From the sequence record NC_025447.1: a stretch of 64,000 bases of DNA. One strand, 5' to 3'. This stretch comes from Escherichia phage 121Q. Below are positions 4,663 through 51,067 of the stretch, one piece after another. A program made the position numbers and the translations under genes. Under the pieces are notes generated by a model. It made no database searches and was not told where the DNA came from. It was given only the letters and a program-made list of their open reading frames with translations. Position 1 is the stretch's first letter. Every line of letters starts with the position of its first letter.

Positions 4663-6804
4663 TTATGGTAGGGTTATGTAAGTTACGGGTTGGGCAGCTT
4701 TTAATGCTGCACCAGCGGCAGTTGCTGTTATGATAGGATCTGCAATATCAATTCTATATACGTTGTTTACAACATACACTGCACGAGTTATATACGTTCT
4801 CAAATCACCACCATTTTCACCAGCACCGGATATAATGATCTCAGTACCAGCAGCTTTTGCATATTGGTTTTCACCCCATGACACACCCAATGCTTCTATG
4901 TATGTTTGTCCTGCTACCGTTTGTCTAATTGTGTCATATTTTCCGAAAAAAGAACCACCAACAGTTACAATATATTTTCCACCCGATTGTTTATGAATAA
5001 TCGTGCCTTCAGAGAAATAGCGTCCCCCAGGAAAAGTATCGTATGGAATATAATATTGCTCAACTACAGGTATCAGTACTGGGCCACGGTGACCTGTACC
5101 ATCGATTGCAGTTGTAACTTTAAAGTTATTAGATGATTGGTCTATTCTGTCTACATACATTTTAGAAAAACTATATTTTGAAACATTACAATCATCTTGA
5201 ACAACACAGTTAGTCCAATTAGTATAAGTATATTTAGAGCGAGTATAGATACCACCACCTTCGCCTTCGGTAGAGAGGTGTTGACCAATTACATCTAATT
5301 CTTTAGTTCTAATATCACTAAATTTAGATGATGATGGCAAACCACGCCAAAGGATTTTAGAACAAGTGATATTGCTCAATTCTGTATTATTTAACCAATT
5401 ATCAGAACCGGAAGTATAAACAAGTATAGAAGACTCTGGAATATAGAGATTAGAAATTTTAAAGTTTCTAGGTGGTCCAGCAAAACGACCAGAAGTTACA
5501 CCCCAGTTTATTGAAACCATTCTATTTGTGATAGAAGGATCATTAAGCAAATGACCAGTCAACCCATCAATAATGAATTCTTTCGAACCATAAGTTATAA
5601 CACCAGCAGTGGTTAATCCAGTACCAACAGAAACTAAAGATGATGGATAAACTTCATTATTAAGTATTTTAAAGTCCATTCCTAATTCAACGTGTATACA
5701 TTGTCTAACATTATATAGTCTGTTATTTTTAATAACAAAGTTTCTGACATATTGTGTATCTGGTGCATCTAAACCATAAGGACCAGAACCAGCAACGCCA
5801 ATACCAATGCCCCAGTTTGAAAGTGGGATTGGAGCGTTAGAACCATCAACGTTTTCAATTACGTTTCCTTCAATCACAAAACCATCAGGATAATGTGAGT
5901 TAATTACGTTTAGTTCAATTGCATCACCATAGATATCATGAATATGGTTATATGAATATCTACCAACCTTCATTTTCTCACCAGTACCTTGTTGAAGAAC
6001 ACCATACTTACATTGGGTCATTTCATTAAAGCAAAAATCTATTGTTCCTGGTTGTGTCATACCTTGCATTAAAAATGCAGCAGTACTTGTGATGTTTATA
6101 AATTTATTAAAATAAAACTTACCATCTCCACCGAAGAATTTTAAATAACATCCAGTAAGTGTTGCAAATTGTATTTGGGAATTAATAACAGATACCATAG
6201 TACCACCGTTACCAGTAATAGTTCCCCCAAACCAAGTTACATCTTCTAGGTATATTGCAGTTTTGATACGGTAATTACCACCAGCCTGAATTTGGATTTT
6301 ATTTTCTTTAGCATAAGCAGCACATAAATTTACAGCAGCAGTGTCATCAGTTTCGCCATCACCTTTAGCACCAAATTCTTCTGGTGTTATATAAAACTGG
6401 GCCTGTTGAACTGTACCTCCAGTAATAAGTCCGATGAAATCACCACCATTTTTACTGGATAGAACTTTTTTATTAATGTATAATGATTTTACCCATGTAC
6501 CATTACTTTTTGCAAAAATATCAACAATACCATCTTCATCAATTTGAAAATACGTATTATTGTTCTTTCCTACATCATCGGTAGGGGGTACAACACCAAA
6601 TAATGCATTAGGGTTATCTTCAAGATATTTTACGTTAACTGCTGAATTAGGGTCAGATGAAGTTCCTACCTTCAGTGGTAGGAACTGTTCTCCTAGATAA
6701 TCTTTTATAGAAACTGAATCATTGATAAAATTTATTGAAGCACCTTTTTTCCCCAATATGAATTTGGGCTGCATAGTTCCTTCAAAATTAGAAAATACTG
6801 CCAT
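4663..6804 (-). CDS. Tailspike-like protein with pectate-lyase-type beta-helix motif (putative polysaccharide depolymerase)
   Basis: 713 aa; shared N-terminus MAVFSNFEGTMQPKFILGKKGASI; GDGETDDTAAV motif (encoded 6340-6363) typical of pectate lyase 3 / tailspike beta-helix domains; GGGAGG ribosome-binding site. Confidence 0.6.
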   Translation of the reverse strand: MAVFSNFEGTMQPKFILGKKGASINFINDSVSIKDYLGEQFLPLKVGTSSDPNSAVNVKYLEDNPNALFGVVPPTDDVGKNNNTYFQIDEDGIVDIFAKSNGTWVKSLYINKKVLSSKNGGDFIGLITGGTVQQAQFYITPEEFGAKGDGETDDTAAVNLCAAYAKENKIQIQAGGNYRIKTAIYLEDVTWFGGTITGNGGTMVSVINSQIQFATLTGCYLKFFGGDGKFYFNKFINITSTAAFLMQGMTQPGTIDFCFNEMTQCKYGVLQQGTGEKMKVGRYSYNHIHDIYGDAIELNVINSHYPDGFVIEGNVIENVDGSNAPIPLSNWGIGIGVAGSGPYGLDAPDTQYVRNFVIKNNRLYNVRQCIHVELGMDFKILNNEVYPSSLVSVGTGLTTAGVITYGSKEFIIDGLTGHLLNDPSITNRMVSINWGVTSGRFAGPPRNFKISNLYIPESSILVYTSGSDNWLNNTELSNITCSKILWRGLPSSSKFSDIRTKELDVIGQHLSTEGEGGGIYTRSKYTYTNWTNCVVQDDCNVSKYSFSKMYVDRIDQSSNNFKVTTAIDGTGHRGPVLIPVVEQYYIPYDTFPGGRYFSEGTIIHKQSGGKYIVTVGGSFFGKYDTIRQTVAGQTYIEALGVSWGENQYAKAAGTEIIISGAGENGGDLRTYITRAVYVVNNVYRIDIADPIITATAAGAALKAAQPVTYITLP

Positions 6805-6818
6805 TATGACATCCTCCC

Positions 6819-7970
6819 TTAAATATTATCTTGAATCGGTTGGATAGGAGCTTGCCATGAAAGAGTACAAATAATTTCCATTTTTCCATAAGGACTGTTG
6901 TTAACAGAATCGTTGAATACACATGAAATAATTTCATCAACATCGGATGCTGCATGATTAGTTTCATTAACAATAAAACGCATCTGACGATTGATATCAA
7001 AGTAGGAAGTTGGTGCAATTACCGTCCCGCCAATATCTTCTTGTGCTTCACCACCAAAACGTACAAACATATCAGTTACTGGAAGAGAATAAGGTTGTAT
7101 AACGTTTACATCAATATTAGAAACTACATATCCAGCAGGACATGTACCAATAACTAATAGTGCGTTAGTCCATGAGCTATCTATGGTATTTCTAATAGAA
7201 ATTGTATCTTTACCTGGTGCACCTGGTTCGCCTTGTATACCTTGAATACCTTGCTGGCCTTCTTTACCACGGAATAGAATACCCTCACTCCACTCTTTTG
7301 AAGGAGGGGTAGTTGTAGTTACTTCATCAACATAATATAGTTTTCCATCAGTGTTGTTATAAAAACAATAATCAACTGGAAGATTTTCAATACTTGGAAA
7401 TTGATCACCACTGCTATCAATATGGAAACGACCACGCGGACCTTGTTCACCACGGAAAGGTATACCATCACTCCAAGTAGCAGTTACACTTTGATAGAAA
7501 TAAAGTTTACCATCTTGAGTATTATAAAATGTATAGTTATTAAAAAGACCAGTTGTTGGGAAAGTAGTTCCAGCACTATCAATGTGGAACGGCTTACCCG
7601 CTTCACCCGTATCACCTTTACCAAACTCAACACTAATCCATGTACTTGTCGGATCTTGTGCATCATTTGATTTAAAGTATAGAGTACTGGTATTGTTAGC
7701 CAAGCTTAAGTAGCACCACCCAAGTGGTTCACCAACTTTAAATTGTTCGGAAGGAATTTCAAAACCAATCTCATTAGGATAAAAGTTTTTACCATTCTCG
7801 CCATTCTGTCCTACAACAAGACCTAAATCTTGAATTGTGTTATCTGCATAGGTTACAATTAAATGCCCAGCACCATTAATAACTAGACTTTTGATGCCGG
7901 AGTTATTACATGAACCATTAAATGAAATTGTCATAATATTTCCCTTGTATGAGTTAATGTCATATACCAA
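6819..7970 (-). CDS. Tail fiber protein with collagen-like Gly-X-Y triplets
   Basis: 383 aa; GEQGPRGR and GKEGQQGIQGIQGEPGAPGKD collagen-like runs, each preceded by a duplicated ~60-aa unit (FHIDSAGTTFP... and FHIDSSGDQFP...). Confidence 0.5.
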   Translation of the reverse strand: MVYDINSYKGNIMTISFNGSCNNSGIKSLVINGAGHLIVTYADNTIQDLGLVVGQNGENGKNFYPNEIGFEIPSEQFKVGEPLGWCYLSLANNTSTLYFKSNDAQDPTSTWISVEFGKGDTGEAGKPFHIDSAGTTFPTTGLFNNYTFYNTQDGKLYFYQSVTATWSDGIPFRGEQGPRGRFHIDSSGDQFPSIENLPVDYCFYNNTDGKLYYVDEVTTTTPPSKEWSEGILFRGKEGQQGIQGIQGEPGAPGKDTISIRNTIDSSWTNALLVIGTCPAGYVVSNIDVNVIQPYSLPVTDMFVRFGGEAQEDIGGTVIAPTSYFDINRQMRFIVNETNHAASDVDEIISCVFNDSVNNSPYGKMEIICTLSWQAPIQPIQDNI

Positions 7971-8044
7971 TATTTATCAGTACAAAATACATTTCGTTAT
8001 CATTAATAAATAAATGAAAGTTCACTACTAAAAGGGCTTAAACA

Positions 8045-8542
8045 ATGGCATTAAGATCAAAAGACTTTCTCTTCAGAAGAAAAACAAAAGATGGTTCATG
8101 GCAAGATTTTCCTGAATCTGATAGCTGGTATCCAGCTAACTTGGATTATCACTGGAATGAACAAACGTTACCACTAGCAAGTGGTGGCTACTATGGCTGT
8201 ACTACAGGTTTACATACGATTTCATTTACACTACGTAATTTTATTGGTAGAATTTATGTGTTAGCTACATTAGCTAGTAATCCTACTGATGATGATTGGT
8301 TTCCAATTAAATTCACTGAAAGTTGTAATTATTATCTTGAATTTACTGATATGGTTATTTTAAATCCAAATGGTGGGGATTTAATTAGACAACAAGGAAC
8401 TACCGGAACATTTGCTGAAACAGTAACTGGTAATTTTACTTACCTTAAAGTTGGTATAGACCGTGATTATATTAGTAAGTATCCATCAGATGTCCAAAAA
8501 AGTTTAGCTGGGAAGTTAGAACAAATTTTAATTAACTACTAA
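8045..8542 (+). CDS. Hypothetical protein (first gene of plus-strand island)
   Basis: 165-aa ORF with AAGGG ribosome-binding site; no recognisable motif. Confidence 0.4.
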   Translation: MALRSKDFLFRRKTKDGSWQDFPESDSWYPANLDYHWNEQTLPLASGGYYGCTTGLHTISFTLRNFIGRIYVLATLASNPTDDDWFPIKFTESCNYYLEFTDMVILNPNGGDLIRQQGTTGTFAETVTGNFTYLKVGIDRDYISKYPSDVQKSLAGKLEQILINY

Positions 8543-8551
8543 GGATTAGAA

Positions 8552-9160
8552 ATGAAATTAGAAACAGAACAACCAAAACTATTTGTTAAAGGTCATGTCC
8601 TAATTACTGACGTTACTGATCCATCAAATCAAAAAATCGTTTTAGATAAATCTAACGCTATTCACCCTGAAAATATGAGTACTGCCATTGCTAATGCGTT
8701 AGCATATAATCAAGACAGTACTGGTATTCCTATTGGTTCTATTAGCGAGATGCGTTTTGGTAATGGTGGTACAGTAGTTTTAAGTACTGGGCGTGTTACT
8801 TATAAAAAACCACGTGTTACATCATTTGGTGGTTTGTATTCACAAACATATTTGAAAAAAATCAACCCAAGAATTACGGCTGGTATCGATTCACAATATA
8901 ATAATATTACGACTGTTCATATACCAGGTCAGTCCTATACTGATATTGTATGTATTTGTACTTTAGGCTTAGGTGAACCATCAGATCAAGGTGTGAGTTC
9001 AGGGACAAGCATGGACGGAACATATGTGTTTGATGAATTGGGATTATACACCGATGGTGATAGTGGTATTCCTTTAACACATATTATTTTCCACCCAGTT
9101 GAAAAAAGTGCAAACCGTGTTTTGCAAATTAAATACACTGTGCGTGTACAACTACAATAA
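8552..9160 (+). CDS. Hypothetical protein
   Basis: 202-aa ORF tightly packed after the previous gene; GGA ribosome-binding site. Confidence 0.4.
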   Translation: MKLETEQPKLFVKGHVLITDVTDPSNQKIVLDKSNAIHPENMSTAIANALAYNQDSTGIPIGSISEMRFGNGGTVVLSTGRVTYKKPRVTSFGGLYSQTYLKKINPRITAGIDSQYNNITTVHIPGQSYTDIVCICTLGLGEPSDQGVSSGTSMDGTYVFDELGLYTDGDSGIPLTHIIFHPVEKSANRVLQIKYTVRVQLQ

Positions 9161-9172
9161 TGGGGTCATATA

Positions 9173-10273
9173 ATGAGTGTTAACTATACAATTTATCGAA
9201 GTAATGGTAGTGTTTATGCTACCATTCCAAATAACGTTATTTTAGGTCCAAATCAGCCAGGTAGTAACCCAGTTCCATTAAATTTAGTTGGTAGAAACAA
9301 AGTAAGTTATGGTCAAGCATGGAATGAAAACTTTTTACATTTAGTTGAAAACTTCAGTTCAGCTTCAGCACCACGTGGTAACGTAAATGGTCAACTTTGG
9401 TATCGAAATACTGGAAGTACTGGTGAGTTATTAATATCATTAGTGGATAATGCTAGACAACCAGCAGATATGGTAAGTGAAGCGGAATGGGCTTCTATTC
9501 CAATGATAACCGTATTCAACACTGTACCAGATGGTGAAAACAGTGTTATGGGTCGTATGGTATTAACCAGCAATGGTGATTCACTTCGTGTTTTGATGAA
9601 AAACAAAGAATGGCGTGAAATTCAAACATCTCGACCAGAAAACAAAGAATATACATCATTATTAGATATTAACTATGATAATGGAAAAAAATACATAGAG
9701 TTTACACAAAGTAACAGTACTAAACCAATTGCGTATTTTAACTTAGGCGGTACTTCACAAGTAGATACAAATAACTGGACAACATTAACTAATGGTACTG
9801 GTGTATTTGAATTTGGTAGCAACTATTTCTATGAATTAAAAATTATGATTAGAGAAGTAAATGATTCTTCTGGTGAGATAGTTTCTCTTCCATATAATTC
9901 AAAAACCTTTTTTATAAAAGGGCAATTCTATGTAGATAATCAAGGAACTTTTGTTCCTGGTTCGGTTGGGGCAAGTCAAATGCCAGACCCACGTAGGATT
10001 ACACAATTAGAATCCATAAAAGATGTTATTACCAGTAGTCGCCCAAACTGGGACGTAAATATTGTTATTAATGGTGTAGATCCATCTATCCCAAATCCTA
10101 ATGGAACATCTAAAGCTGATTATGAAAATTGGGTTATCAATTCTCTAAACTCAAATAAAAATTTAGGTTTTCGAGTTGATGGTAGCATTAGTAATCTAAC
10201 TGCTGGTGAATCCGTTAAACTACAAGCATCCGTGTTGTTAAATATTACAGGTATTCCGATTATTGGAGTATAA
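9173..10273 (+). CDS. Hypothetical protein, possibly fiber or baseplate associated
   Basis: 366-aa ORF, Asn/Ser/Thr/Gly-rich like the neighbouring fiber proteins; followed by a terminator hairpin. Confidence 0.4.
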   Translation: MSVNYTIYRSNGSVYATIPNNVILGPNQPGSNPVPLNLVGRNKVSYGQAWNENFLHLVENFSSASAPRGNVNGQLWYRNTGSTGELLISLVDNARQPADMVSEAEWASIPMITVFNTVPDGENSVMGRMVLTSNGDSLRVLMKNKEWREIQTSRPENKEYTSLLDINYDNGKKYIEFTQSNSTKPIAYFNLGGTSQVDTNNWTTLTNGTGVFEFGSNYFYELKIMIREVNDSSGEIVSLPYNSKTFFIKGQFYVDNQGTFVPGSVGASQMPDPRRITQLESIKDVITSSRPNWDVNIVINGVDPSIPNPNGTSKADYENWVINSLNSNKNLGFRVDGSISNLTAGESVKLQASVLLNITGIPIIGV

Positions 10274-10304
10274 AAAAAGGAGCCATGTGGCTCCTTTTTG
10301 TTTT
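10272..10304. terminator. Bidirectional rho-independent terminator
   Basis: A-run, stem GGAGCC/GGCTCC (10279-10294), T-run; sits between convergent genes. Confidence 0.6.
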
Positions 10305-10767
10305 AATATCTATATGGTAAACTGTTGACAAACTGTGTACCTTCACGTATACTTTCCCATAGTGAGTAAAAATCTTTCATTAAGTTTGTGTTAAGTAAAG
10401 TATTTTTAGCACCAGGGTGTAATGGTTTAGGCCAAGAACCAATTCTAACCCAAGCATAACCAGAGCTTTCATGATTTAAAGTTGGTACAAATTCATTCTC
10501 AACTACAATAACAAATGAATAATATTTAAATTTACCATTTTTTGTACAAAATACATCAAACGGTATAATATCAATAATGTTAGGTATTGAGTTGCCCAAC
10601 TCTTCTTTAATTTCTCGCATCAGACCTTGTAGTGGTGTTTCGTTATGTTCAAGCTTTCCACCAACAAATGCCCAGTTGTTAGAATAGGTACTTCTTTCAG
10701 AACGCAAGTTTAACATCATATGTCCAGTACTTTTTGATAAAAATATAGCACCAACCGCTTCATTCAT
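10303..10767 (-). CDS. Nudix hydrolase
   Basis: 154 aa; perfect Nudix box GGKLEHNETPLQGLMREIKEELG (G-x5-E-x7-REUxEExGU). Confidence 0.8.
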   Translation of the reverse strand: MNEAVGAIFLSKSTGHMMLNLRSERSTYSNNWAFVGGKLEHNETPLQGLMREIKEELGNSIPNIIDIIPFDVFCTKNGKFKYYSFVIVVENEFVPTLNHESSGYAWVRIGSWPKPLHPGAKNTLLNTNLMKDFYSLWESIREGTQFVNSLPYRY

Positions 10768-10780
10768 AACAACACCTCCT

Positions 10781-12124
10781 TTATTTGTCAGTGAAAGTTA
10801 TTTTCCAATATCCCTGACGATACACAGGCATGATACTTTTATGCCATTTAAATTTGTCATTATATCTATAATAACCATTGTCTTCTTTATTATAAATGTA
10901 ATTTCGTACAGTAGATGGATCAATTAATTGTGCACCATCATTTGTAATTTTAAACAAATAATTTGATGGGATTTCGGTTTCTTTATAAATGATGTTATGT
11001 ATACTGTTATTTACATAATATTGTTCAGGTAATGCACTTGAAAGTACTGAATCTTTCTGCACAAACCCATGTATAGTGTAATCAACAGTATAATTGGTAT
11101 TATCAAGCTGTACTATAATTTTGTTGGCATCTTCATTTTCACCATACGACGCTATATGACCTTTTAGTGGGTTGTCTTCTTCAATAGATTGTTGAAATTT
11201 AATCCCTACTTTTTTGTCATCAAAATTTGGTTCTAGATATTTAAGATATTTTTCCCATGAATATATTCCACCGTTGGGAGAAACCGCAGATAGCGATTGG
11301 CTAACCAAGGTAAGTTGGTATGTATCAGGTAAATTATACTTGGAATTAGTAATTTCTTCAACTTTAATGCATAAATTCTTGGGTGTAAAAACATCTGTTA
11401 TTATATCTGAATAATTTCCCATTTCAAAATCAAATTCGTCACGAGCACCTTTAATATTTGTAGTAATCTGTTGGATTAATTTTGGTTTTTCAACAATAGC
11501 TGGTAAAGAAAACCATATTGTCGTTTCAAATGTTAAAACCATTATATCCAAATCTGGGTCAGTTCCTTGTGGAAAACCACGAGTAGAAAACTGACAATCT
11601 ATTAGTTCAACATCACTAAGCGATGTCCAATCTAACGGGTTATCAGATAATTGAAGTTGTATACTAGGTGCAAACAAAGTTGAGATTTGTTCGAATAATT
11701 CCATTTTAGTTTGAGTTTGAGTTACCCAAATATTCAAATCAAACGTAAAAGTCCAAGGTACTGGGTTATGTCTTACAATTTTGTATTGTGTGTCAAGATC
11801 TTTTGTGTACTCATTAATAGCAGGGGACTTGTTAGACCCCATTACTATAGTTTCGTTGGCATTAGAACGAATATTTTTACGATCCAACTTTAGTTGATTA
11901 ACACTTATGGTCATTATAGGTGCTGATGGGAGAACATTTTCACTATTCCCATTTATAATTGCTGCTGCCATTCTTGAAATATCGGCATAGCGACATGGAA
12001 CCTTTTTGTATTTTGGGTTTCCATTAGCATCAATACCATTTTGTACTTGAAATTCACCAAAAACTCTGATAAGATGTTTCAGTACTCTGCGAAATTGACC
12101 GTCATAATAATAATCTATTTTCAT
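10781..12124 (-). CDS. Hypothetical protein, likely structural
   Basis: 447-aa ORF; 4-nt overlap with the upstream gene suggests translational coupling. Confidence 0.4.
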   Translation of the reverse strand: MKIDYYYDGQFRRVLKHLIRVFGEFQVQNGIDANGNPKYKKVPCRYADISRMAAAIINGNSENVLPSAPIMTISVNQLKLDRKNIRSNANETIVMGSNKSPAINEYTKDLDTQYKIVRHNPVPWTFTFDLNIWVTQTQTKMELFEQISTLFAPSIQLQLSDNPLDWTSLSDVELIDCQFSTRGFPQGTDPDLDIMVLTFETTIWFSLPAIVEKPKLIQQITTNIKGARDEFDFEMGNYSDIITDVFTPKNLCIKVEEITNSKYNLPDTYQLTLVSQSLSAVSPNGGIYSWEKYLKYLEPNFDDKKVGIKFQQSIEEDNPLKGHIASYGENEDANKIIVQLDNTNYTVDYTIHGFVQKDSVLSSALPEQYYVNNSIHNIIYKETEIPSNYLFKITNDGAQLIDPSTVRNYIYNKEDNGYYRYNDKFKWHKSIMPVYRQGYWKITFTDK

Positions 12125-13614
12125 TCTGTGTCCTTATGTATGCGATAAACAGTATTAGGTTTAACTGCGTCATGTAATGGAACTTTGTTATCACTATTTA
12201 CAAACTGTGTAAGTGCTAAGTCTGCACCTTCCCACGGTTTTCTTCCACCATAATCAAAAATAACCCATGAATTCTTAGTTGCATTGAATTCCCATAACGT
12301 AACTGGAGTATAATCGGTGCGATAGAAATAGTCACCATCTACTGCATCAGTTGGGAACATATTTCCTTCAGGGACTGTACCTCGTGCTGGTGGAATTTTA
12401 GGACGATAATCTTGTTGCGAATCAATATTACCATATACACAATTGGACGTGAATGGTTCATTGACATAAGTTACCTTTGGTTCCCCCCACTTGTCATCAT
12501 TATACTGATAAATGTGTGGTTCTTTATAAAAAATACAAAAATCTTCCACATCTTCTGGTGGAACATCACTGGTAGTATATTCTACATCACAATTTAACCA
12601 TTTTTTAGCACTTTTATCATATTGATACAACGTATAACCTGTCACATCTGCGTCATTTTCTTTAAAGAAGAAGTCACCATCCATTGGTTTTCTGGGAAAG
12701 ATGGTTCCACGCTTGACTTCCACAGAAATCCATGTATCATTAACAAACTCTTTGAGTACTGGGTATGTTTTTTTCAAAAAATACATTCCATCGGCAGGTT
12801 CTTCTGGAAAATCATAACCGTTAAGCATATATTTTGATAAATCTACTGTATCAGGTCGATCATCATACAAATGTTCATTTGTATAATGAATATAGGGTAC
12901 TTCATCATCAGCTTGCATGATGATACGGTTCATGATATCCATTTCATTGCCATAGTTACTGTTTTCCGACGAACCATCATCGGTATTTCCATTACCATTA
13001 TTAGGGTCATCTGGATTATCAGGATAATTATTGTTACCGAGTAAATCGGAGTACTCAGGTGAGTCGGTTAGCGGTTTAACTCTAAGTTTATAAATGTGAT
13101 GTTGCCACGTAACCGAGTATCCCTCAGATGTACGAAATGCATCTTGGACGACATAGAAGCGGTTTAGACCTGTATCTTTACCCAATACATCAAAATCACG
13201 TAAATTTGGTAGTTCTATCACATCCCCTGGCATGATTTTTCTACCTAAACGCTGCATCATTGTATTATAATGGATTGTGATGTCCATAGTGTTGAAATTA
13301 AAGAACAATCCTGGGATTTTCAAGTCTGGAGTTGCTTCTTGAACTTGATAGACACAACTAAGTGTGATAGCTTCAAGGTTGTAGTTTCTGTTTGGTGTGT
13401 CACCAAAAATTAAATCGCCAATACTTGACACAACTGATCCTGAAGATGTATAATCACCTCCATAGGATAAGTCAGTGTTGTCAGCAACTTGTTTTGGACC
13501 GACATATGCATAAAGCCACATGTCAACTCCACCAATGTTGTATTGTTCAGCAATGGCAGAATCAATGAACTTGTAATCATTGGTTCTACCTTTTTTCCAC
13601 ATTCTATATGTCAT
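12121..13614 (-). CDS. Hypothetical protein with low-complexity Asn/Asp/Gly/Pro segment
   Basis: ORF track starts at a TTG (13626); I prefer the ATG at 13612-13614, which has GGAGA 5 nt upstream. Contains PDNPDDPNNGNGNTDDGSSENSNYGN. Confidence 0.4.
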   Translation of the reverse strand: MTYRMWKKGRTNDYKFIDSAIAEQYNIGGVDMWLYAYVGPKQVADNTDLSYGGDYTSSGSVVSSIGDLIFGDTPNRNYNLEAITLSCVYQVQEATPDLKIPGLFFNFNTMDITIHYNTMMQRLGRKIMPGDVIELPNLRDFDVLGKDTGLNRFYVVQDAFRTSEGYSVTWQHHIYKLRVKPLTDSPEYSDLLGNNNYPDNPDDPNNGNGNTDDGSSENSNYGNEMDIMNRIIMQADDEVPYIHYTNEHLYDDRPDTVDLSKYMLNGYDFPEEPADGMYFLKKTYPVLKEFVNDTWISVEVKRGTIFPRKPMDGDFFFKENDADVTGYTLYQYDKSAKKWLNCDVEYTTSDVPPEDVEDFCIFYKEPHIYQYNDDKWGEPKVTYVNEPFTSNCVYGNIDSQQDYRPKIPPARGTVPEGNMFPTDAVDGDYFYRTDYTPVTLWEFNATKNSWVIFDYGGRKPWEGADLALTQFVNSDNKVPLHDAVKPNTVYRIHKDTE

Positions 13615-13654
13615 GATTGTCTCCAAAATAAATCGGGTATATCTTTATTTACCT

Positions 13655-13684
13655 TGTAGACAAACCGTAAGAATGTGATATAAT
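13655..13684 (+). promoter_or_regulatory. Sigma70-type promoter candidate for the ClpA-like gene
   Basis: TTGTAGAC -35-like element, 17-nt spacer, TGATATAAT with TATAAT at 13679-13684. Confidence 0.4.
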
Positions 13685-13724
13685 GTTTATTAATTAGAGT
13701 GACGTGAATCACATAGGAGAATAC

Positions 13725-16013
13725 ATGAATCTTACTCAATTGTTCAAAAAAAGCGACGAACTGGCAACATCTCTAGGTCATACATTCTTGACTATTGACC
13801 ACGTAAGTGCCACAGTACTGACTATTGATAGCATCAAGAACGTATTTGAAGATATGAACATTGATGCAGACAAACTGCACAACCGCCTGATGAACTATCT
13901 TAAAAATACAACAGTTCCACATGCACCAAAAAGTGTTAAAGATGAAGACGCGAATCGAACTTCACTTCTAGTGAATCGCGTTGTACATGAGCTTTCTAAA
14001 AAATCAGTCATTGAACAACTAAAAAGTGATGATTTTTCGATTGATGCATATTTTGTTCTATTCGAATGTCTGTCTTTCCCTAACACAGCACTAGAAGCTG
14101 CGTTAAAAGAAGAAGGTGTTAGCTGTACTGAAGCTGCACGTGCATTACAGAAACACGTTGAGTCACTTGATAAGGGTATCAACTTACAAAGTATTAATGA
14201 CGAACCGATTGGAGATAAAAAAGTGGCCCAACAGCAGCAATCATCTAAACAAAAAGGTTTGGAAGACTATACAACGAATCTAACTGCTCTTGCAAAAGAA
14301 GGCAAACTAGATCCTATGATTGGTCGCCAGAAAGAATTGTCTGCATTGATTGAGACTCTTGCTCGCAAAACCAAAAAGAATGCTATTCTCACTGGTGAAG
14401 CTGGTGTAGGTAAAACACAAATCATCGACGGGCTTGCACAAGCTATTGCTGATGGTAACGTACCTGAACACCTGAAAGACGTTGAAATTCTTTCACTAAA
14501 TGTTGGTGCATTGACTGCTGGTACTAAGTATCGTGGTGAATTTGAAGAACGCATCGACAATTTGCTAAAAGAACTAAAGAAACGTGAAAATACTATTGTT
14601 TTCATTGATGAAATTCATATTATGGTTGGGGCTGGTTCCGCAAGTAATGGTTCTATGGACATGAGCAATATGCTTAAGCCAGCACTTTCACGTGGTGAGA
14701 TTCGTGTAATTGGTGCAACAACATATGATGAATATCGTAAAAATATCGAGAAAGATAGTGCATTAACTCGTCGTTTTATGAAAATTGACGTAGTTGAGCC
14801 GACAATTGATGAAACTCGTGCAATTGTTAATGGTTTGAAACCAACGTATGAAAAATTCCATAATGTTGAGTTCACATCTGATGCAATGGATGCTGTAATT
14901 TCTCTCAGTGATAAATTCCTGAAGAATAAGCACTTCCCAGATAAAGCAATTGATCTAATGGATGCTGCTGCGGCTAAAGTTCGTTCACGTGACAACAATA
15001 GTAAGCTAATTACTGCCAATTTGATTCAAGAAGTTGTTGCTGGTATTGCCAATTTGGATATCAACGTGGTTGCATGTACTGAAAGTGATCGTATGCGTAA
15101 TCTACCAGATGCACTACGCTCACGTGTATACGGTCAAGAGGAAGCTATTCAAAAATTAGTTGATAACGTGATGGTAGCTCGTGCAGGACTGCGTGACAAA
15201 TCTAGTGTTCAGGGTGCATTTATGTTTGTTGGACCATCTGGTACTGGTAAAACAGAAATTACCAAAGCATTAGCAGACGCAACTGGTGCGGAACTCATTC
15301 GCTTTGATATGTCAGAATTTTCTCAAGAACATACTGTTTCTAAACTAATTGGTTCACCTCCAGGTTATGTTGGTCATGATTCTGGTAACGGTTTACTGTT
15401 GGATAAAATTGAGCAGTTCCCTAATGCAGTACTGTTACTTGATGAAATTGAAAAAGCAGATCGTAAAGTACTACTAACCTTCCTACAGGTTTTGGATGAA
15501 GGTCGTCTGACTGGTTCTCAAGGTAAAACTGTATATTTTAATAACGTAACTGTTATTATGACTACAAACCTTGGTGCGGCTGATTCAACAAAGCGTAGCA
15601 TTGGTATGAGCGGTAGTGACACTGCACAGGACAAGGCAATTAAAGCATTCTTGCCACCAGAGTTTATTAACCGTATTGATAGTATCGTTACGTTTAAAGA
15701 CCTAAGCAGTGAAGCTATTGACAGCATCATTGATAAGTTCATGGGTGGTTTGAATGAACAAGTCAAAGACCGTAATGTTAAAGTTACATTAACAAAAGCT
15801 GCACGTGAATGGCTTGCGAAAAATGGGGTAAAAGTTGGTATGGGTGCACGTCCAATGAAACGTACCATTGAACAAAACATTCGTGTGCCACTAGCTAAAG
15901 AAATGTTGTGTGGTTCACTTGTGAATGGTGGTAACATTACATTTGATGTTATTGATGGTAAAATCGGTATTAAGCCGAAACGTACCAAAGCTGTAGATAA
16001 AGCACTAGTATAA
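13725..16013 (+). CDS. ClpA-like AAA+ unfoldase (two nucleotide-binding domains, ClpP-docking-type IGM loop)
   Basis: Walker [10 protein letters not shown] (domain 1) and GPSGTGKTE (domain 2); Walker B FIDEIH and LLLDEIEKA; segment [10 protein letters not shown]...[20 protein letters not shown] resembles the E. coli ClpA IGL-loop region. Start moved to the ATG at 13725 (AGGAGA 5 nt upstream); the ORF-track start is a GTG. Confidence 0.85.
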
Positions 16014-16049
16014 AAAAAGAAAAGGAGAGCATAATGCTCTCCTTTTTTT
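16012..16049. terminator. Bidirectional rho-independent terminator
   Basis: Stem GGAGAGC/GCTCTCC (16024-16042) flanked by A-run and T-run, between the convergent ClpA-like and giant genes. Confidence 0.65.
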
Positions 16050-16050
16050 A

Positions 16051-26052: not shown

Positions 26053-26070
26053 TTGATTTATTTATGATAT

Positions 26071-26101: not shown

Positions 26102-29100
26102 TTAAGAACCGATATTAATATTACTTTTAGCTAGTGAGTTAACAATTTGAACATTTTCAACAGATGCAGTACTCAAAAATATTTGGTCTGAACGTGAAGG
26201 GATTTCAAATAGAGAACCAAATTTTGAATTTGGATTTTGTGCAACTATAACAATAGTACTAATATGTCTACCTAACTGTGAGTGTATGTAAGTACACAAA
26301 TCAGTATAATAGAAACTTTCACCGAAATCCCAGTTATCAACATTGAAGTATTCATTAGTTAATGCTATGACATTTTGACGAATTTCATCATCACTCATTG
26401 TGCTGTTTGGTAATTTCACTACTTTAAAATCAGCTTTGTAATCTTCAGCAGCACTGTTTCCAAATAAAGGTAAGTACTCAGCACTATGCCAAATGATACT
26501 ATCACTAATGACTATTTTTTGTTCAACATCTTTGAACATATCTTTTAATTCAACCGATGTTGGTGGTTTAGGAATACTACCAACAGCATTATTTTTCAAC
26601 CAAACGTCAACTTCAGTTTTATATGAATTGGTTAATACATACATATCAATTAAGTTTGTTCTACTAGGATCAATGCGATTGTCGTCAGGTGCATAGTGTT
26701 TCCAATGGAAGTCTATACTAGTACGTGCATTAGTTTTAACAGTGTACTGTGAAGTAACATCTTTGTATCCATAATAATCTAGCTTCTGATTCTCGTCAGC
26801 ATTAGTTCCCATGTTATTAATTGCACGATAAAAAGCCAATTCAGGACTAACAGTGCCAGTATCATCGGAATAAGTTAAATTACTAATTAGTTGTCCCAAA
26901 CGATCATTGTTATTGCCAACTGTTTGTTCAATAAAATAATATTTACCATCATAGTTAAAACCAACTAAAAATCCAGAACCTTTACTATATAATCCACTCA
27001 ATGTGGTTGAACGAATTGCGTTATTTCTAACAAATTCAGTTCTTTTATATGCATTCGGCTCTGCCAAAGCTTGTTCCATTGTATAAGACCACGATGAATC
27101 AAGAAGTGTGAAGGTATCATTTGGTAACGACAGTACTGATATAGTGAAATCACTATTTTCCTGAAATACCAAAATACCACCATATTTTAATGCATCGGTT
27201 CCAGTCCAAGTAGGAACAATTTCTTTAAATTGGTTTGGTTCCAATGGTATACCATTACTATCTACTTTCCTAGATGTAACAATAACACGAGAACCATCTA
27301 GATAGCCATTCTCTTGTTGAATTGTGTCATAAATTTGAAAATCTATATTACTTGTCAATCCTGAATTACTACTACTAGTAGTGTTAGATGATAAAATTTC
27401 AATCTTATCACTTTGAACTGTACCAGTACTTATATCAGTAATTTTTTTAGATGATACAAAGTAAAATCTTACTTTTTCTCCACCCACAAAAATATATTCA
27501 ATACCGTTAGCATCAAATTCCCAAGTTTCTGCTGTATATTTTACATTTATTATAATTAAAACTTCATTACCATTATACACAATAGTATCGTCATTAGTAC
27601 TTGCTTCGATTGGAACCCATGAAGTTGTTTCTTTATCATGTACAATTACAAAATCGGTTTTTTTATCCAACATAGCAGAAATAGACTGAACTTCAACTGT
27701 GTTAAATCTAGTTCTATATGGTAATATGTACTCTATTGCTTGCATTCCACTAGGAACAGATGTGCTTAGTACATAAAAACCATTATCTAACACACTTACA
27801 ACACTTGCCCATATCGTAGTACCAGAATTAGAAAATTTAATAAGAGTACCTACCTGATACGAACCATACACTGTTCCAGACGAACCCAAAATTCTGCCAT
27901 ATGTATTGGTTGTGTAATTTGAATTGTACACTGGAGTCCATGCTTGTTGTATTTCAATACCAATTGTATTGGATGGATACGCTTGGTAACGTTGTATTAC
28001 TGCATTTTCCCCAATCAATGGTTGAATATTGTCAATAACAATACTAGCATTTGTTTTTGTAGTTGGGAGCAATAACGATCTATTAAATTGCGTGTTTTCT
28101 TGATATAATGCACCATCATCACTAAAAACGTCGGTATTCTGATACTTACCAGTAGGATCATTGATATCAATGAACCTTGATTGACCACTATAAATTCTAT
28201 TAATAGCTTTAGATTTAAGTACTGTATTTCCTAAACTAAGTGGTGCTATATTATAATCTTCACCATTGACAAAACGGTTTTGGGTATAGTACATTTGTGG
28301 TGCACGTGCTTTAATCTGCTCAATAGTTTCAGCACTTTGTGCACGGTCGGATTCATATTGTAATGAAAAACGTATATCCAATGTACTAGATTCATAACTT
28401 GACTGTGTTTTTGTACGATATGTATATTTTACGCTTTTGTTTTGAATTTCAGAAGTTTTAATGTTATATGTTTTACCATTACTAACACGATACCATACAC
28501 GGAACGTCCCACGGGGAACAACACCACTTCTTGAGTCTGGGTACTTAATTGTTATTTGGTCTTTATCACGAGTAGTAACAGCAAAAATTGTTTTTAATTG
28601 ACGATTAACAGTGTTATATGCAATACTTTCCATTGATGGAACTTTTGTCCATTTGGTACGAACAATACCATCTTCATTTATTTCTTGAACCCATACATCA
28701 GTTTCGTTGATATTATCAACGTTAATATCTTGTATACGGTTCTCTTCACGGATAGCATATTGATAATCTTGATATGTTAATGTACCTTGTACGAAATATA
28801 CAAAAAACCCAGTATTTGGTGAGCTAAATCCATTACCATCATTTTGATAAACAATATATTTTTGCTCTTGTGGTTCTGGATGTCGTTCTTCAACACCAAC
28901 AGACGTAATATCAGGATTCACTACTTCAAATGTCATAGATTCACCATTGACAGTTGCAATAAATGGAATACTGGGTGCTGTCATTGGGATGGTGTTCATT
29001 CGATATAGTTGACGGGAGACACCATTAACATCAATACGCTTGACTGGATTACCAAATTGGTTAGTACTGACAAATGAACTGTTCATTACTAGAATAAAGT

Positions 29101-29563
29101 TTTCATACCAGTTAGCATCCATCGGGTCATTCCAACGAATAATTTTATCTTTTAATGATTCATTAAAACTATTACGAACATCTTGGTTTGTTTTAATTTC
29201 GGTTAATTTAGCAACTGCACGACCTGGATATGAGCGGCGTGGTGAGTAAGAAATCATTTTAGCTAGTTTTAGTACTGACGCACGACGAGTTGCAGTATCT
29301 AAAAAGTTTTCACGCGTGTTCAAATCCATACGAAATGCCAAGTTTTGTCCTAGCATAGAAATCGTATCTAAAATAAAAATAAACTGGTCGTTTTCGATCC
29401 AGTCGTTAAATGAATCTGGGTAAGTTGCACGTAGATAATCAATCATACTCTGACGGATAGTGTCGAAGTCATAAGCTGTTAGATTGATTTTATAAAAACT
29501 TTCATATACTTGAGTCCAATCCTCACCACTATATAAATTAGACTGTCTTTTTTGTTGTGACAT
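26102..29563 (-). CDS. Baseplate wedge protein, gpJ/gp6-like N-terminus
   Basis: 1153 aa; N-terminal region (DFDTIRQSMIDYLRATYPDSF...ATRRASVLKLAKMISYSPRRSYPGRA) resembles the baseplate J family as I recall it; position after the gp25-like gene matches the usual spike-W-J order. Confidence 0.5.
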   Translation of the reverse strand: MSQQKRQSNLYSGEDWTQVYESFYKINLTAYDFDTIRQSMIDYLRATYPDSFNDWIENDQFIFILDTISMLGQNLAFRMDLNTRENFLDTATRRASVLKLAKMISYSPRRSYPGRAVAKLTEIKTNQDVRNSFNESLKDKIIRWNDPMDANWYENFILVMNSSFVSTNQFGNPVKRIDVNGVSRQLYRMNTIPMTAPSIPFIATVNGESMTFEVVNPDITSVGVEERHPEPQEQKYIVYQNDGNGFSSPNTGFFVYFVQGTLTYQDYQYAIREENRIQDINVDNINETDVWVQEINEDGIVRTKWTKVPSMESIAYNTVNRQLKTIFAVTTRDKDQITIKYPDSRSGVVPRGTFRVWYRVSNGKTYNIKTSEIQNKSVKYTYRTKTQSSYESSTLDIRFSLQYESDRAQSAETIEQIKARAPQMYYTQNRFVNGEDYNIAPLSLGNTVLKSKAINRIYSGQSRFIDINDPTGKYQNTDVFSDDGALYQENTQFNRSLLLPTTKTNASIVIDNIQPLIGENAVIQRYQAYPSNTIGIEIQQAWTPVYNSNYTTNTYGRILGSSGTVYGSYQVGTLIKFSNSGTTIWASVVSVLDNGFYVLSTSVPSGMQAIEYILPYRTRFNTVEVQSISAMLDKKTDFVIVHDKETTSWVPIEASTNDDTIVYNGNEVLIIINVKYTAETWEFDANGIEYIFVGGEKVRFYFVSSKKITDISTGTVQSDKIEILSSNTTSSSNSGLTSNIDFQIYDTIQQENGYLDGSRVIVTSRKVDSNGIPLEPNQFKEIVPTWTGTDALKYGGILVFQENSDFTISVLSLPNDTFTLLDSSWSYTMEQALAEPNAYKRTEFVRNNAIRSTTLSGLYSKGSGFLVGFNYDGKYYFIEQTVGNNNDRLGQLISNLTYSDDTGTVSPELAFYRAINNMGTNADENQKLDYYGYKDVTSQYTVKTNARTSIDFHWKHYAPDDNRIDPSRTNLIDMYVLTNSYKTEVDVWLKNNAVGSIPKPPTSVELKDMFKDVEQKIVISDSIIWHSAEYLPLFGNSAAEDYKADFKVVKLPNSTMSDDEIRQNVIALTNEYFNVDNWDFGESFYYTDLCTYIHSQLGRHISTIVIVAQNPNSKFGSLFEIPSRSDQIFLSTASVENVQIVNSLAKSNINIGS

Positions 29564-29567
29564 TATT

Positions 29568-30332
29568 TTAATCCTTTAATAATATGTTAAAATTATCATA
29601 AAAGTACTTTTTTAGTACCGAAATATAGTCTTCATTATACTTCAATCGAAGTAAATTTATTCCATTCTCGGTGCAGTACGTGTTTTTAATTTTATCATTG
29701 TGTTGAGTTTGTTTTAGTGATTTTGTTCCACCCCAATGCTCTGAACATTGAAAATGTTGTTCACCATCATATTCGATACACAAGTTTAAATCTTCAATAT
29801 AAAAATCAAATGGCAATGTTAAAATATTCTTACAATTATCAAATCTCTTTTCTCTAACATATTTAAATGAAGATAATATATTTTCTATATCTGATACTGC
29901 CTTGGATTGAGTACTATCTCTCATACATTTTTCACACCCGTATCTACTATTCAAGTGATTATCAGGTCGCTGGTAGAATATACCATGTATTGGACAAATT
30001 ATTGATATATGTGTTTTATTATTAACATAATTAGCCATACTATAATCAAATTTATTTTTAAATTTAAAATTGGCTTTTTTCTTGAAATTTAAAAAATTAT
30101 GTGGACTTTTTTGCCTATTTGTATTATATTCAATAGAACATTTCATGCATCCTTTGCCACATGTATGGTCATTTGGTGTTTGTAGAAAAAATCCATGTTT
30201 TGCACAGCCAATCCATACTTTTGTTTTAGCATTATGATATTTAACCATACTATAGTCATATCGTATACCATGAACTTTTATCGCATTGGTTACAAATTTA
30301 TATTTTGTCGATCTAGTGGTTGCATATTTCAT
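29568..30332 (-). CDS. Homing-endonuclease-like protein: two zinc-ribbon repeats plus C-terminal PD-(D/E)XK-like motif
   Basis: 254 aa; repeats KVWIGCAKHGFFLQTPNDHTCGKGCMKC and HISIICPIHGIFYQRPDNHLNSRYGCEKC; C-terminal FDFYIEDLNLCIEYDGEQH. Inserted between baseplate genes. Confidence 0.5.
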   Translation of the reverse strand: MKYATTRSTKYKFVTNAIKVHGIRYDYSMVKYHNAKTKVWIGCAKHGFFLQTPNDHTCGKGCMKCSIEYNTNRQKSPHNFLNFKKKANFKFKNKFDYSMANYVNNKTHISIICPIHGIFYQRPDNHLNSRYGCEKCMRDSTQSKAVSDIENILSSFKYVREKRFDNCKNILTLPFDFYIEDLNLCIEYDGEQHFQCSEHWGGTKSLKQTQHNDKIKNTYCTENGINLLRLKYNEDYISVLKKYFYDNFNILLKD

Positions 30333-30401: not shown

Positions 30402-30797
30402 TTATAAAGACGATACTGAATATGTTGCCATTCTGTTATTACTTCTTGCATCGAATACAATAGTAAGTTCTTCTAATGTATCCAATACTACGTACTGTAA
30501 TACAATATTCATTTGGTATCCATATTCTATTCTTGAAATTTGTAATTTTTTAAGATTTAAACGTGGGTCTAAGCTAATTATTCTACGGGCATCTGCTTCT
30601 AAAAGGTTGATAGTATTATAACCTTCCAATTCAAATAGCAAATCCCATGCAATAAACCCATAGTCAGCATCAAATGCTCGTTCACCTTTTTTTGTATTGA
30701 AATGATTCATTAAATCTTGGCGAACCAATTCACTATCATACAATGTTTCAGTTCTACCAACTACAGGGGTAGAAAACCCTTTAAAAACAACTGCCAT
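30402..30797 (-). CDS. Baseplate wedge protein, gp25/gpW-like
   Basis: 131 aa; TKKGERAFDADYGFIAWDLLFE matches my recollection of T4 gp25 TRKGSRPFDPEFGCDLSDQLFE. Confidence 0.6.
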   Translation of the reverse strand: MAVVFKGFSTPVVGRTETLYDSELVRQDLMNHFNTKKGERAFDADYGFIAWDLLFELEGYNTINLLEADARRIISLDPRLNLKKLQISRIEYGYQMNIVLQYVVLDTLEELTIVFDARSNNRMATYSVSSL

Positions 30798-31301: not shown

Positions 31302-31337
31302 AAAGATATCCTCGTTTTATTTATAGTGCTAAAATAT

Positions 31338-43858: not shown

Positions 43859-43988
43859 TTTATTAAATCTCCATGTAATAAATGTGTTTTAGTATTTATA
43901 AGACCAAAAAAGATTAAATTAAACTAATTTTTATATTCTCTATAGTTTCATAAATATTTCTATAATACATCTATTAAAAGGGAATGTT

Positions 43989-51059: not shown

Positions 51060-51067
51060 TATAAATA
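51060..51067 (+). promoter_or_regulatory. T4-type late promoter TATAAATA upstream of the major capsid gene
   Basis: TATAAATA at 51060-51067, 45 nt upstream of the ATG at 51113; the extended motif TAAATAATATCATACT recurs upstream of 48335. Confidence 0.5.

What the first reader, a model, noticed from the sequence alone, without database searches (positions are those of the whole stretch)
8045..10273. Plus-strand three-gene island embedded between minus-strand fiber operons
Three tightly packed genes with their own terminator interrupt the minus-strand receptor-binding locus. No motifs were recognised. Opposite-strand islands inside tail fiber regions often carry fiber accessory or host-interaction functions.
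Basis: seen in the sequence. Interest (0 to 1): 0.4.

Follow-up and report, generated by a model that had tools for sequence, protein, structure and literature searches.

The report
Inverted baseplate/fibre-anchor genes of jumbo phage
The three plus-strand genes are conserved, late-expressed particle proteins of a 121Q/PBECO4-type jumbo coliphage, most likely outer baseplate and fibre-anchoring parts, and they sit on the "wrong" strand because of one ancient inversion rather than being an accessory island.

Summary
The window is an Asteriusvirus (121Q/PBECO4/phAPEC6-like jumbo myovirus, about 96% identical). The three ORFs are real: A 8045-8542 (165 aa), B 8552-9160 (202 aa), C 9173-10273 (366 aa). 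They are 9-12 nt apart, preceded by a T4-late-type ATAAATA motif and followed by a bidirectional hairpin terminator. Published proteomics finds their orthologues in virions: A and C in RaK2, B and C in phAPEC6 and CBB, B in PA5oct.

They are core genes, not variable cargo. B is 73-79% identical across genera, more than the gp15-like tail protein. In nine more distant jumbo-phage lineages, B lies directly downstream of the giant wedge-position protein on the same strand. In eight of them it is followed by one to three fibre-like proteins sharing C's N-terminal domain, one of which also carries the T4 gp10 C-terminal domain.

One inversion of the block B..ClpA (8552-16013) converts that ancestral order into this window's order and places B-C behind A's promoter.

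Best reading: B is a wedge-bound adaptor, C a short, probably trimeric, baseplate fibre or pin, and A a small beta-sandwich partner. None has Pfam, PDB-sequence or T4 sequence homology. This is ordinary biology that is poorly annotated; interest is modest.

The parts
7971..8044 (.). Divergent promoter region holding two back-to-back T4-late-type ATAAATA motifs. One is on the - strand (7971-7977), 43 nt upstream of the collagen-like gene's ATG at 7934. The other is on the + strand (8006-8012), 39 nt upstream of A.
   Evidence: the motif and the following AAAGTTCA are conserved in RaK2, GAP32 and XaC1. 16 of the 20 ATAAATA copies in the window are intergenic, although only 8.4% of the window is intergenic. 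The CBB paper predicts the same pair of late promoters, Porf_228 and Porf_229. Promoter function is inferred, not shown.
8045..8542 (+). Gene A, 165 aa. A small all-beta sandwich virion protein, orthologous to RaK2 gp063, CBB_229 and PBECO4 gp545. It is found only in the Rak2-like clade and its nearest outgroups.
8552..9160 (+). Gene B, 202 aa. A highly conserved virion protein, orthologous to RaK2 ORF064, CBB_230, phAPEC6 gp251c and PA5oct gp357. Proposed wedge-bound adaptor for fibres that carry the C-type N-terminal domain.
   Evidence: PHROG 11259 at 3e-113. 73-79% identity across genera and 49-54% to the nearest outgroups examined; 33-41% to the distant relatives PA5oct, Atu_ph07, RsoM2USA and SCTP-2. 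575 clusters in the deep profile search. MS detection in phAPEC6, CBB and PA5oct. It lies immediately downstream of the giant wedge-position protein in 9 outgroup lineages. It also occurs as an N-terminal module in front of Pro/Thr-rich linkers and variable C-terminal domains. AF2 pLDDT is about 90: a long hairpin, one helix and nine strands.
9173..10273 (+). Gene C, 366 aa. A virion protein, orthologous to RaK2 gp065, CBB_231, phAPEC6 gp250c and PBECO4 gp543. It has a conserved N-terminal fibre-anchor domain (about residues 1-90), a middle beta region and a confidently folded C-terminal beta-sandwich (160-366).
10274..10299 (.). Bidirectional intrinsic terminator hairpin (AAAAAGGAGCC-ATGT-GGCTCCTTTTT), shared by gene C (+) and the convergent NUDIX gene (-).
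   Evidence: The G17 record annotates the same hairpin as a terminator.
8552..16013 (.). Inferred inverted block: B, C, NUDIX, gp15-like, the 501-aa virion protein and ClpA-like. Its breakpoints are A|B (8543-8551) and ClpA|giant (16014-16050).
   Evidence: The gene order was compared with metagenomic loci L013 and L015 and with Vibrio phage 2.275.O (L014). These have giant-B-C co-oriented, then NUDIX/gp15/~475-aa on the opposite strand (~351 aa in L014), then ClpA, then A. Orthology was checked by phmmer/hmmsearch.

Best explanation
The locus is a late transcription unit (A-B-C) of a 121Q/PBECO4-type jumbo myovirus. It encodes three conserved virion proteins of the outer baseplate / fibre-attachment apparatus.

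Shown:
- The genes are real, tightly packed and preceded by a T4-late-type ATAAATA motif.
- They are followed by a bidirectional terminator.
- Their orthologues are in purified virions.
- They are as conserved as, or more conserved than, neighbouring core tail genes.
- Outside the Rak2-like clade, B is always encoded immediately after the giant protein that follows the gp6-like wedge gene (the gp7 position). In eight of nine such lineages it is followed by one to three fibre-like proteins that share C's N-terminal domain but differ at their C-termini. One of these is a bona fide T4 gp10 C-terminal-domain protein.

Inferred:
- B is a constant adaptor or 'socket' subunit bound to the giant wedge protein.
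- The C-type N-terminal domain is the plug by which trimeric fibres or pins are fixed there.
- C itself, conserved across phages of different host genera, is a short structural fibre, pin or connector rather than the host-range determinant.
- A, a small beta-sandwich resembling glycan-binding or C2 modules, is a clade-specific partner or decoration.

The opposite-strand 'island' arose when one inversion of the block B..ClpA (window 8552-16013), in the ancestor of the Rak2-like clade, moved B-C from behind the giant gene to behind A. A was already a lone divergent gene with its own late promoter.
For: Identity of the window: (96% to Asteriusvirus genomes).

Gene reality and packing.

Virion presence:
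- phAPEC6 gp250c/gp251c.
- CBB_230/231.
- RaK2 gp063/gp065.
- PA5oct gp357-360, flagged ESI-MS/MS.

Late promoter motif: and the published prediction. Terminator.

Conservation.

The giant -> B -> C-type-N-domain gene order is seen in PA5oct, Atu_ph07, SCTP-2, Phosso, L013, L014, L015 and L016, with the profile checks. RsoM2USA has giant-position protein -> B but no detectable C-type neighbour.

PA5oct gp358 combines the C-type N-domain (hmmsearch 2.3e-12) with Pfam Gp10_C (9.8e-24) and a direct phmmer match to T4 gp10 (1.4e-12).

The C-type N-domain also occurs on fibres with Peptidase_S74, Peptidase_G2 or Collar domains.

B occurs as an N-terminal module in front of PT-rich linkers and variable domains.

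The neighbouring baseplate genes are gp25-like, gp6-like and the giant protein. The single-inversion model rests.
Against: - No physical location in the virion is known for any of the three proteins, and no solved structure of any relative exists.
- There is no sequence-profile similarity to T4 gp6-gp15, gp53, wac or gp19.
- The A+B model was a fused construct, so its PDB and BFVD neighbours cannot be assigned to A or B.
- AF2 gave no confident A-B docking (pTM 0.52).
- The giant protein's equivalence to T4 gp7 rests only on gene position and size.
- A B-C contact is inferred from gene adjacency alone.
- B shows few peptides in MS (2 in both phAPEC6 and CBB). This would also fit a minor or loosely bound component.
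Confidence: 0.65

Rival explanations
1. Accessory or host-interaction island: a mobile or variable opposite-strand cassette that modulates fibre function or host range.
For: It lies on the opposite strand, has its own promoter-like motif and a terminator, sits next to tailspike genes, and has no recognised domains.
Against: It is present with identical synteny in Asteriusvirus, Alcyoneusvirus, Mimasvirus and XaC1. B and C are more conserved than the gp15-like tail protein, whereas the adjacent tailspike keeps only its N-terminal 15%. Composition is native. The proteins are virion components. The orientation is explained by an inversion.
Confidence: 0.07
2. B is a tail-fibre assembly chaperone that partly stays on the particle, and C is the true secondary receptor-binding fibre.
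For: B is about 200 aa and always encoded next to fibre genes. It has low peptide counts in virions. C has a fibre-type N-terminus and a distal beta-sandwich.
Against: B is encoded upstream of the fibres, not downstream. B stays highly conserved while the C-termini of the adjacent fibres vary completely, so it tracks the conserved N-terminal domain rather than the tips a chaperone would fold. B was found in virions of three phages. B is also found fused as an N-terminal module to exposed variable domains. C is 57-67% identical among phages infecting Escherichia, Klebsiella, Cronobacter and Xanthomonas, which is atypical of a host-specific binder.
Confidence: 0.13
3. The three proteins build the neck/collar decoration or the 'hairy' sheath whiskers seen in phAPEC6 and CBB, not the baseplate.
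For: In Rak2-like phages, and in the outgroups L013-L015, C lies next to the gp15-like tail-sheath stabiliser block. The whisker and collar-decoration proteins of phAPEC6 and CBB are unassigned. The neighbouring collagen-like protein and C have high MS coverage.
Against: B and the C-type N-domain proteins keep their adjacency to the giant wedge-position gene in lineages that lack the gp15/NUDIX neighbourhood: PA5oct, SCTP-2, Atu_ph07, Phosso and L016. The same N-domain is joined to T4 gp10's C-terminal baseplate domain and to a Collar domain. The CBB authors expected whisker genes to be absent from GAP32, yet GAP32 has all three genes.
Confidence: 0.12

Closest known systems
T4 gp10 (baseplate wedge subunit / tail pin; Pfam Gp10_C PF21939)
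   Same: C's N-terminal domain is the one found in PA5oct gp358, whose C-terminus is a true Gp10_C domain that matches T4 gp10 directly. The gene position, after the gp7-position gene, is the same. It is probably a trimeric peripheral baseplate protein that anchors other fibres.
   Different: C itself has no Gp10_C domain and no profile similarity to T4 gp10 (hhalign probability 0.1%). Its C-terminus is a different beta-sandwich.
T4 gp9 (baseplate wedge tail-fibre connector)
T4 gp8 (baseplate wedge subunit)
   Same: B occupies the gene slot immediately after the gp7-position giant protein, as gp8 does after gp7 in T4 (for T4's order).
Anchor-and-branch tailspike systems (CBA120 TSP2/TSP4, RaK2 gp528, K64-1)
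   Same: They share the logic of a conserved N-terminal anchor domain carrying variable distal modules, with several fibres attached to one baseplate.
   Different: A, B and C are not among the ten RaK2 adsorption-complex proteins studied (gp098, gp526-534), and that paper does not mention gp063-065. No gp10-like XD domains were detected in C.
Galactose-binding-domain-like / CBM32 jelly rolls and C2-like YomS/XepA sandwiches
   Different: Only 6-14% identity. No sequence-family hit. The assignment to A rather than B was not resolved. No ligand site was examined.

Membership tests
PHROG 13657 / 11259 / 14394 (Rak2-like virion proteins) | Full-length match to the family profile | tested here: met
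   E-values 9e-96, 3e-113 and 8e-222. A and C match their profiles end to end. B covers positions 3-208 of a 383-position profile.
Virion structural protein | Detected in purified particles by mass spectrometry | not testable with these tools
   Taken from papers on orthologues. A: RaK2 gp063. B: phAPEC6 gp251c, CBB_230, PA5oct gp357. C: phAPEC6 gp250c, CBB_231, RaK2 gp065. The phage in this window was not itself analysed.
T4 gp10 family | Gp10_C domain (PF21939) at the C-terminus | tested here: not met
   C has no Pfam hit at E<0.1. The domain is present in PA5oct gp358 (85 bits) and in a 410-aa protein of L013.
T4 gp10 family | N-terminal wedge-attachment domain homologous to that of T4 gp10/gp9 | tested here: not met
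   hhalign of the C family against T4 gp9 and gp10 gives probability 0.3% or less. Functional equivalence is inferred only from the domain combination in PA5oct gp358.
T4 gp8 / gp11 / gp12 / wac / gp53 / gp6 / gp7 | Detectable sequence-profile homology | tested here: not met
   All hhalign probabilities are below 4% for the A, B and C families. phmmer of the T4 proteins finds nothing in the window.
Trimeric tail-fibre proteins sharing the C-type N-terminal anchor | N-terminal ~90-aa domain (ILGPN...NL.GRNKVSYGQ..NENFL.L.ENF...GQLWY) shared with proteins that carry fibre or chaperone domains | tested here: met
   hmmsearch with the N-terminal profile gives 1e-9 to 1e-18 for the proteins next to B in 8 of 9 outgroup lineages. 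Remote hits carry Peptidase_S74 or Peptidase_G2. Trimer formation itself was not tested.
Phage moron / accessory cassette | Patchy distribution among close relatives and atypical composition | tested here: not met
   The genes are present and syntenic in all Rak2-like genera examined. GC content is like the flanks.
Intrinsic (rho-independent) terminator | G+C-rich hairpin followed by a U-tract | tested here: met
   11-bp stem with 5 G-C pairs and U-tracts on both strands; z -4.0 and -5.4 against shuffles.
T4-type late promoter | TATAAATA-like element at about -10 upstream of late genes | tested here: inconclusive
   AATAAATA at 8005-8012, 39 nt before the ATG and conserved in four genera. The motif is strongly concentrated in intergenic DNA upstream of genes. 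The transcription start was not determined.

The most novel reading that the evidence does not exclude
B together with the C-type N-terminal domain would be a previously unrecognised, widely distributed plug-and-socket system. B has 575 clusters at 50% identity and occurs in jumbo myoviruses of Enterobacteria, Pseudomonas, Vibrio, Agrobacterium, Sinorhizobium, Ralstonia and Salicola. Through this system, interchangeable fibres would be mounted on the giant wedge protein. That would make it a new baseplate building principle without a T4 sequence counterpart, and a handle for swapping receptor-binding modules in jumbo phages.
Probability: 0.3. Interest if true: 0.5.

Novelty: new member of a known kind. 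Interest (0 to 1): 0.3.

Why it matters
Rak2-like jumbo phages (121Q, PBECO4, RaK2, K64-1, CBB) are candidates for therapy and have some of the most elaborate adsorption organelles known. How their fibres are fixed to the baseplate is not known. Showing that these three 'hypothetical' genes are core virion parts gives structural biologists concrete candidates for the fibre-docking layer. So does showing that B plus a shared fibre N-terminal domain form a conserved gene module behind the giant wedge-position protein. The work also corrects a tempting misreading: an opposite-strand island does not have to be accessory cargo. The result itself is annotation-level, not a new kind of system.

Tried and rejected
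- Pfam, NCBIfam and PDB-sequence searches found nothing significant, whether run with single sequences or family profiles.
- hhalign of the three family alignments against T4 gp53, gp6-gp15, wac and gp19 gave nothing above 4% probability. A, B and C are also unrelated to one another.
- There are no paralogues of A, B or C elsewhere in the window.
- The genomic contexts of three long proteins carrying B as an N-terminal domain were mostly uninformative. One lies next to Phage_Tail_Tip and tail-assembly-chaperone genes.
- The sigma-70 promoter scan was at chance level (18 found against 16.9 expected) and was not used.
Full report
**What the window is.** The region 7900-10400 is 96% identical over its full length to published Asteriusvirus genomes (PBECO4, G17, phAPEC6, Sharanji, UB and others). 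It is 60-90% identical to further Escherichia, Klebsiella and Salmonella jumbo phages. The records annotate the same three CDS: PBECO4 gp545/544/543 and G17_00348/347/346. So the window comes from a 121Q/PBECO4-type, Rak2-like jumbo myovirus.

**Checking the observation.**
- The spacers are 9 and 12 nt, and each start codon is preceded by a purine/G-rich Shine-Dalgarno-like stretch.
- Directly after C's stop codon lies an 11-bp hairpin, 10274-10299. It has a U-tract on both strands and folds far better than shuffles in both orientations (-17.2 and -16.2 kcal/mol, z -4.0 and -5.4). It is therefore a bidirectional terminator shared with the convergent NUDIX gene, not the island's private one.
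- The left flank is indeed a fibre locus on the - strand: a collagen-like 'tail protein' at 6819-7970 and a colanic-acid-type pectate-lyase tailspike at 4663-6804.
- The right flank is not a fibre operon. It holds NUDIX (10303-10767), a T4 gp15-like tail sheath stabiliser (10781-12124) and a 501-aa virion protein.
- GC content does not differ from the flanks. Only the GC skew changes sign, with the coding strand.

**The proteins are in the virion.** Published proteomics on orthologues covers all three.
- phAPEC6 gp250c (=C): 9 peptides, 40% coverage. phAPEC6 gp251c (=B): 2 peptides, 13%.
- CBB_231 (=C): 12 peptides, 53%. CBB_230 (=B): 2 peptides, 12.7%.
- RaK2 gp063 (=A): 2 peptides, 10.3%. 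RaK2 gp065 (=C): 5 peptides.
- PA5oct gp357 (=B) and the three proteins after it are flagged ESI-MS/MS in the record.
- A could not have been found in phAPEC6. That record annotates a wrong-frame 57-aa ORF over the intact 165-aa gene.

**Expression signals.** The 74-nt gap between the divergent collagen-like gene and A holds two back-to-back ATAAATA motifs. One is on the - strand (7971-7977), 43 nt before the ATG at 7934. The other is on the + strand (8006-8012), 39 nt before A.
- The + strand motif and the following AAAGTTCA are conserved in RaK2, GAP32 and XaC1.
- In the whole window ATAAATA occurs 20 times. Sixteen copies are intergenic, although only 8.4% of the window is intergenic, and most lie 13-54 nt upstream of a same-strand start.
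- The CBB paper found the same motif by MEME upstream of structural genes and likened it to the T4 late promoter TATAAATA. It lists Porf_228 and Porf_229 at the homologous positions.
- No such motif precedes B or C, so A-B-C is most simply one late operon. This is inferred; no transcript data were available.

**Conservation.** These are core genes, not variable cargo. The table gives identity of each protein in the window to its orthologue in three other phages.

| Protein | RaK2 | GAP32 | XaC1 |
|---|---|---|---|
| B | 78% | 79% | 73% |
| A | 73% | 71% | 58% |
| C | 67% | 62% | 57% |
| gp15-like tail protein | 57% | 62% | 51% |

- The adjacent tailspike aligns only over its N-terminal 14-15%.
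- The three genes and their neighbours keep the same order in Asteriusvirus, Alcyoneusvirus (RaK2), Mimasvirus (GAP32, CBB) and Xanthomonas phage XaC1.
- B has 352 homologues in the word-indexed search and 575 clusters at 50% identity in the exhaustive profile search. It is found in 90 phage records, including Pseudomonas, Agrobacterium, Sinorhizobium, Ralstonia, Salicola and Stenotrophomonas jumbo phages.

**Gene context outside the clade.** This is the key evidence. In nine lineages, B lies immediately downstream of, and co-oriented with, a very large protein (970 aa in RsoM2USA, 3,500-4,600 aa in the other eight). The lineages are PA5oct, Atu_ph07, RsoM2USA, SCTP-2, Phosso, Vibrio phage 2.275.O and three metagenomic jumbo-phage contigs.
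- In this window the giant protein follows the gp25-like and gp6-like wedge genes, which is the gp7 position in T4's order.
- In eight of the nine lineages, B is followed by one to three proteins whose first ~80-100 residues match a profile of C's N-terminal domain (E 1e-9 to 1e-45). Their remaining parts differ.
- PA5oct gp358 joins this N-domain to a Pfam Gp10_C domain (9.8e-24) that T4 gp10 matches directly (1.4e-12).
- In L016 the first such protein carries a Collar domain.
- Remote hits of C carry Peptidase_S74 or Peptidase_G2 intramolecular-chaperone domains, which are hallmarks of trimeric fibres.
- Full-length C orthologues exist only in the Rak2-like clade and its nearest outgroups.
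- A is restricted to the same set. In Vibrio phage 2.275.O the A domain is split by a ~157-aa insertion.

**Why the genes are on the other strand.** The three nearest outgroups (L013, L015 and, less completely, L014) have the following order. The 475-aa protein is the counterpart of the window's 501-aa protein; its L014 counterpart is a 351-aa protein that aligns over only 62% of it.

[giant+][B+][C+][NUDIX-][gp15-][475 aa-][ClpA+][A-][fibres]

The window, flipped for comparison, reads:

[giant+][ClpA-][501 aa+][gp15+][NUDIX+][C-][B-][A-][collagen-like+][tailspike+]

Orthology of every member was checked. A single inversion of the block B..ClpA (window 8552-16013) converts one order into the other. 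Its breakpoints are giant|B and ClpA|A. Because giant->B adjacency is shared by all distant lineages, the Rak2-like order is the derived one. A was already a lone opposite-strand gene beside the fibre genes, and the inversion placed B-C behind it. This accounts for the 'island' without invoking mobility or accessory function.

**Structures.**
- C was modelled from 30 homologues (pLDDT 80). Residues 160-366 form a confident beta-sandwich (above 90). The most conserved part, residues 1-70, is below 50 in a monomer, as expected for a domain that folds in an oligomer or on a partner.
- A and B were modelled as one fused chain with a 25-residue linker from a block alignment. Both halves reach about 90 pLDDT, but their mutual position is not confident (pTM 0.52).
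- A is an all-beta sandwich. B is a long hairpin, one helix and nine strands.
- The query was fused, so these hits cannot be assigned to A or B. According to its paper, the HFTV1 hub itself ends in a galactose-binding domain.
- BFVD gives one clear B homologue and then many 150-190-aa uncharacterised proteins of tailed and archaeal viruses.
- I therefore claim only that A probably has a glycan-binding-like/C2-like sandwich fold, and that B has no clear solved counterpart.

**Further hint on B.** In the exhaustive search most members are stand-alone ~200-aa proteins. About fifteen of the best 150 carry B as an N-terminal domain. It is followed by Pro/Thr/Ala-rich linkers and unrelated C-terminal domains, for example P0324 (679 aa), P0349 (597 aa, weak SPRY) and P0397 (1,157 aa). 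One of these lies next to tail-tip and tail-chaperone genes. That is how an anchoring module behaves.

**Most likely mechanism.**
- B binds the giant wedge protein as a constant adaptor.
- Fibres and pins are mounted there through the shared C-type N-terminal domain.
- C is conserved across phages of different host genera, so it is a structural short fibre, pin or connector (gp9/gp10-like in role) rather than the host-range determinant.
- A is a small clade-specific sandwich that may bind glycans or cap the assembly.

The steps shown are gene reality, virion presence (in orthologues), conservation, the gene-order pattern, domain sharing and the inversion geometry. The steps inferred are every physical contact, the trimeric state, the gp7 equivalence of the giant protein, promoter function and the polarity of the inversion.

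**Comparison with what is known.** None of the three is a sequence member of T4 gp8, gp9, gp10, gp11, gp12 or wac. They work, on present evidence, like T4's peripheral wedge proteins. The RaK2 adsorption-complex study covers gp098 and gp526-534 and does not mention gp063-065. No relative has a solved structure.

**Verdict.** This is an ordinary but under-annotated piece of jumbo-phage baseplate genetics. Novelty is limited to assigning these families to the fibre-docking layer and explaining their orientation. Interest is 0.3.

Noticed in passing
window, whole; e.g. 7971-7977 (-), 8006-8012 (+), 26059-26065 (-), 31318-31324 (-), 43950-43956 (+), 51061-51067 (+): ATAAATA (T4-late-like) occurs 20 times, and 16 copies are in the 8.4% of the window that is intergenic. 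Most lie 13-54 nt upstream of a same-strand start codon. This gives a usable map of late promoters for the whole structural region.
   Followed up: partly
window 29568-30332 (-): A 254-aa HNH/homing-endonuclease-like ORF (PHROG 559, 1.6e-57) sits between the gp25-like wedge gene (30402-30797) and the gp6-like wedge gene (26102-29563).
   Followed up: no
window 30813-31301 (-) and 31338-34001 (-): A 162-aa lysozyme ORF matches only positions 727-885 of the 887-position gp5-like hub-lysozyme PHROG 13211. An 887-aa ORF lies immediately upstream, and phAPEC6 has a gp241 lysozyme-family protein at that position, but I did not scan this ORF. This may be a duplicated or split lysozyme domain.
   Followed up: no
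L003 (phAPEC6 MK817115) 5128-5625: The record annotates a wrong-frame 57-aa ORF (gp252c, 5174-5347) over the intact 165-aa orthologue of gene A. A was therefore missing from the database used for that phage's virion proteome.
   Followed up: yes
L006 (Agrobacterium phage Atu_ph07) 6154-7588: A GIY-YIG/NUMOD3 homing endonuclease (AUZ94960) lies between a 42-aa ORF that duplicates B's N-terminus (AUZ94961) and the full-length B gene (AUZ94959). This looks like the footprint of a homing-endonuclease insertion at the giant|B junction.
   Followed up: partly
L014 (Vibrio phage 2.275.O) 19254-20174 (-): The A domain is split by a ~157-aa insertion in a 306-aa protein. The same long form corresponds to PHROG 14467 and to a 323-aa 'structural protein' of Serratia phage BF.
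   Followed up: partly
window 13704-16013 (+): A ClpA/ClpB-like double-AAA+ ATPase is embedded in the tail/baseplate module and travels with the inverted block. It is conserved at this place from Vibrio phage 2.275.O to RaK2. Its role in a structural module is unexplained.
   Followed up: no
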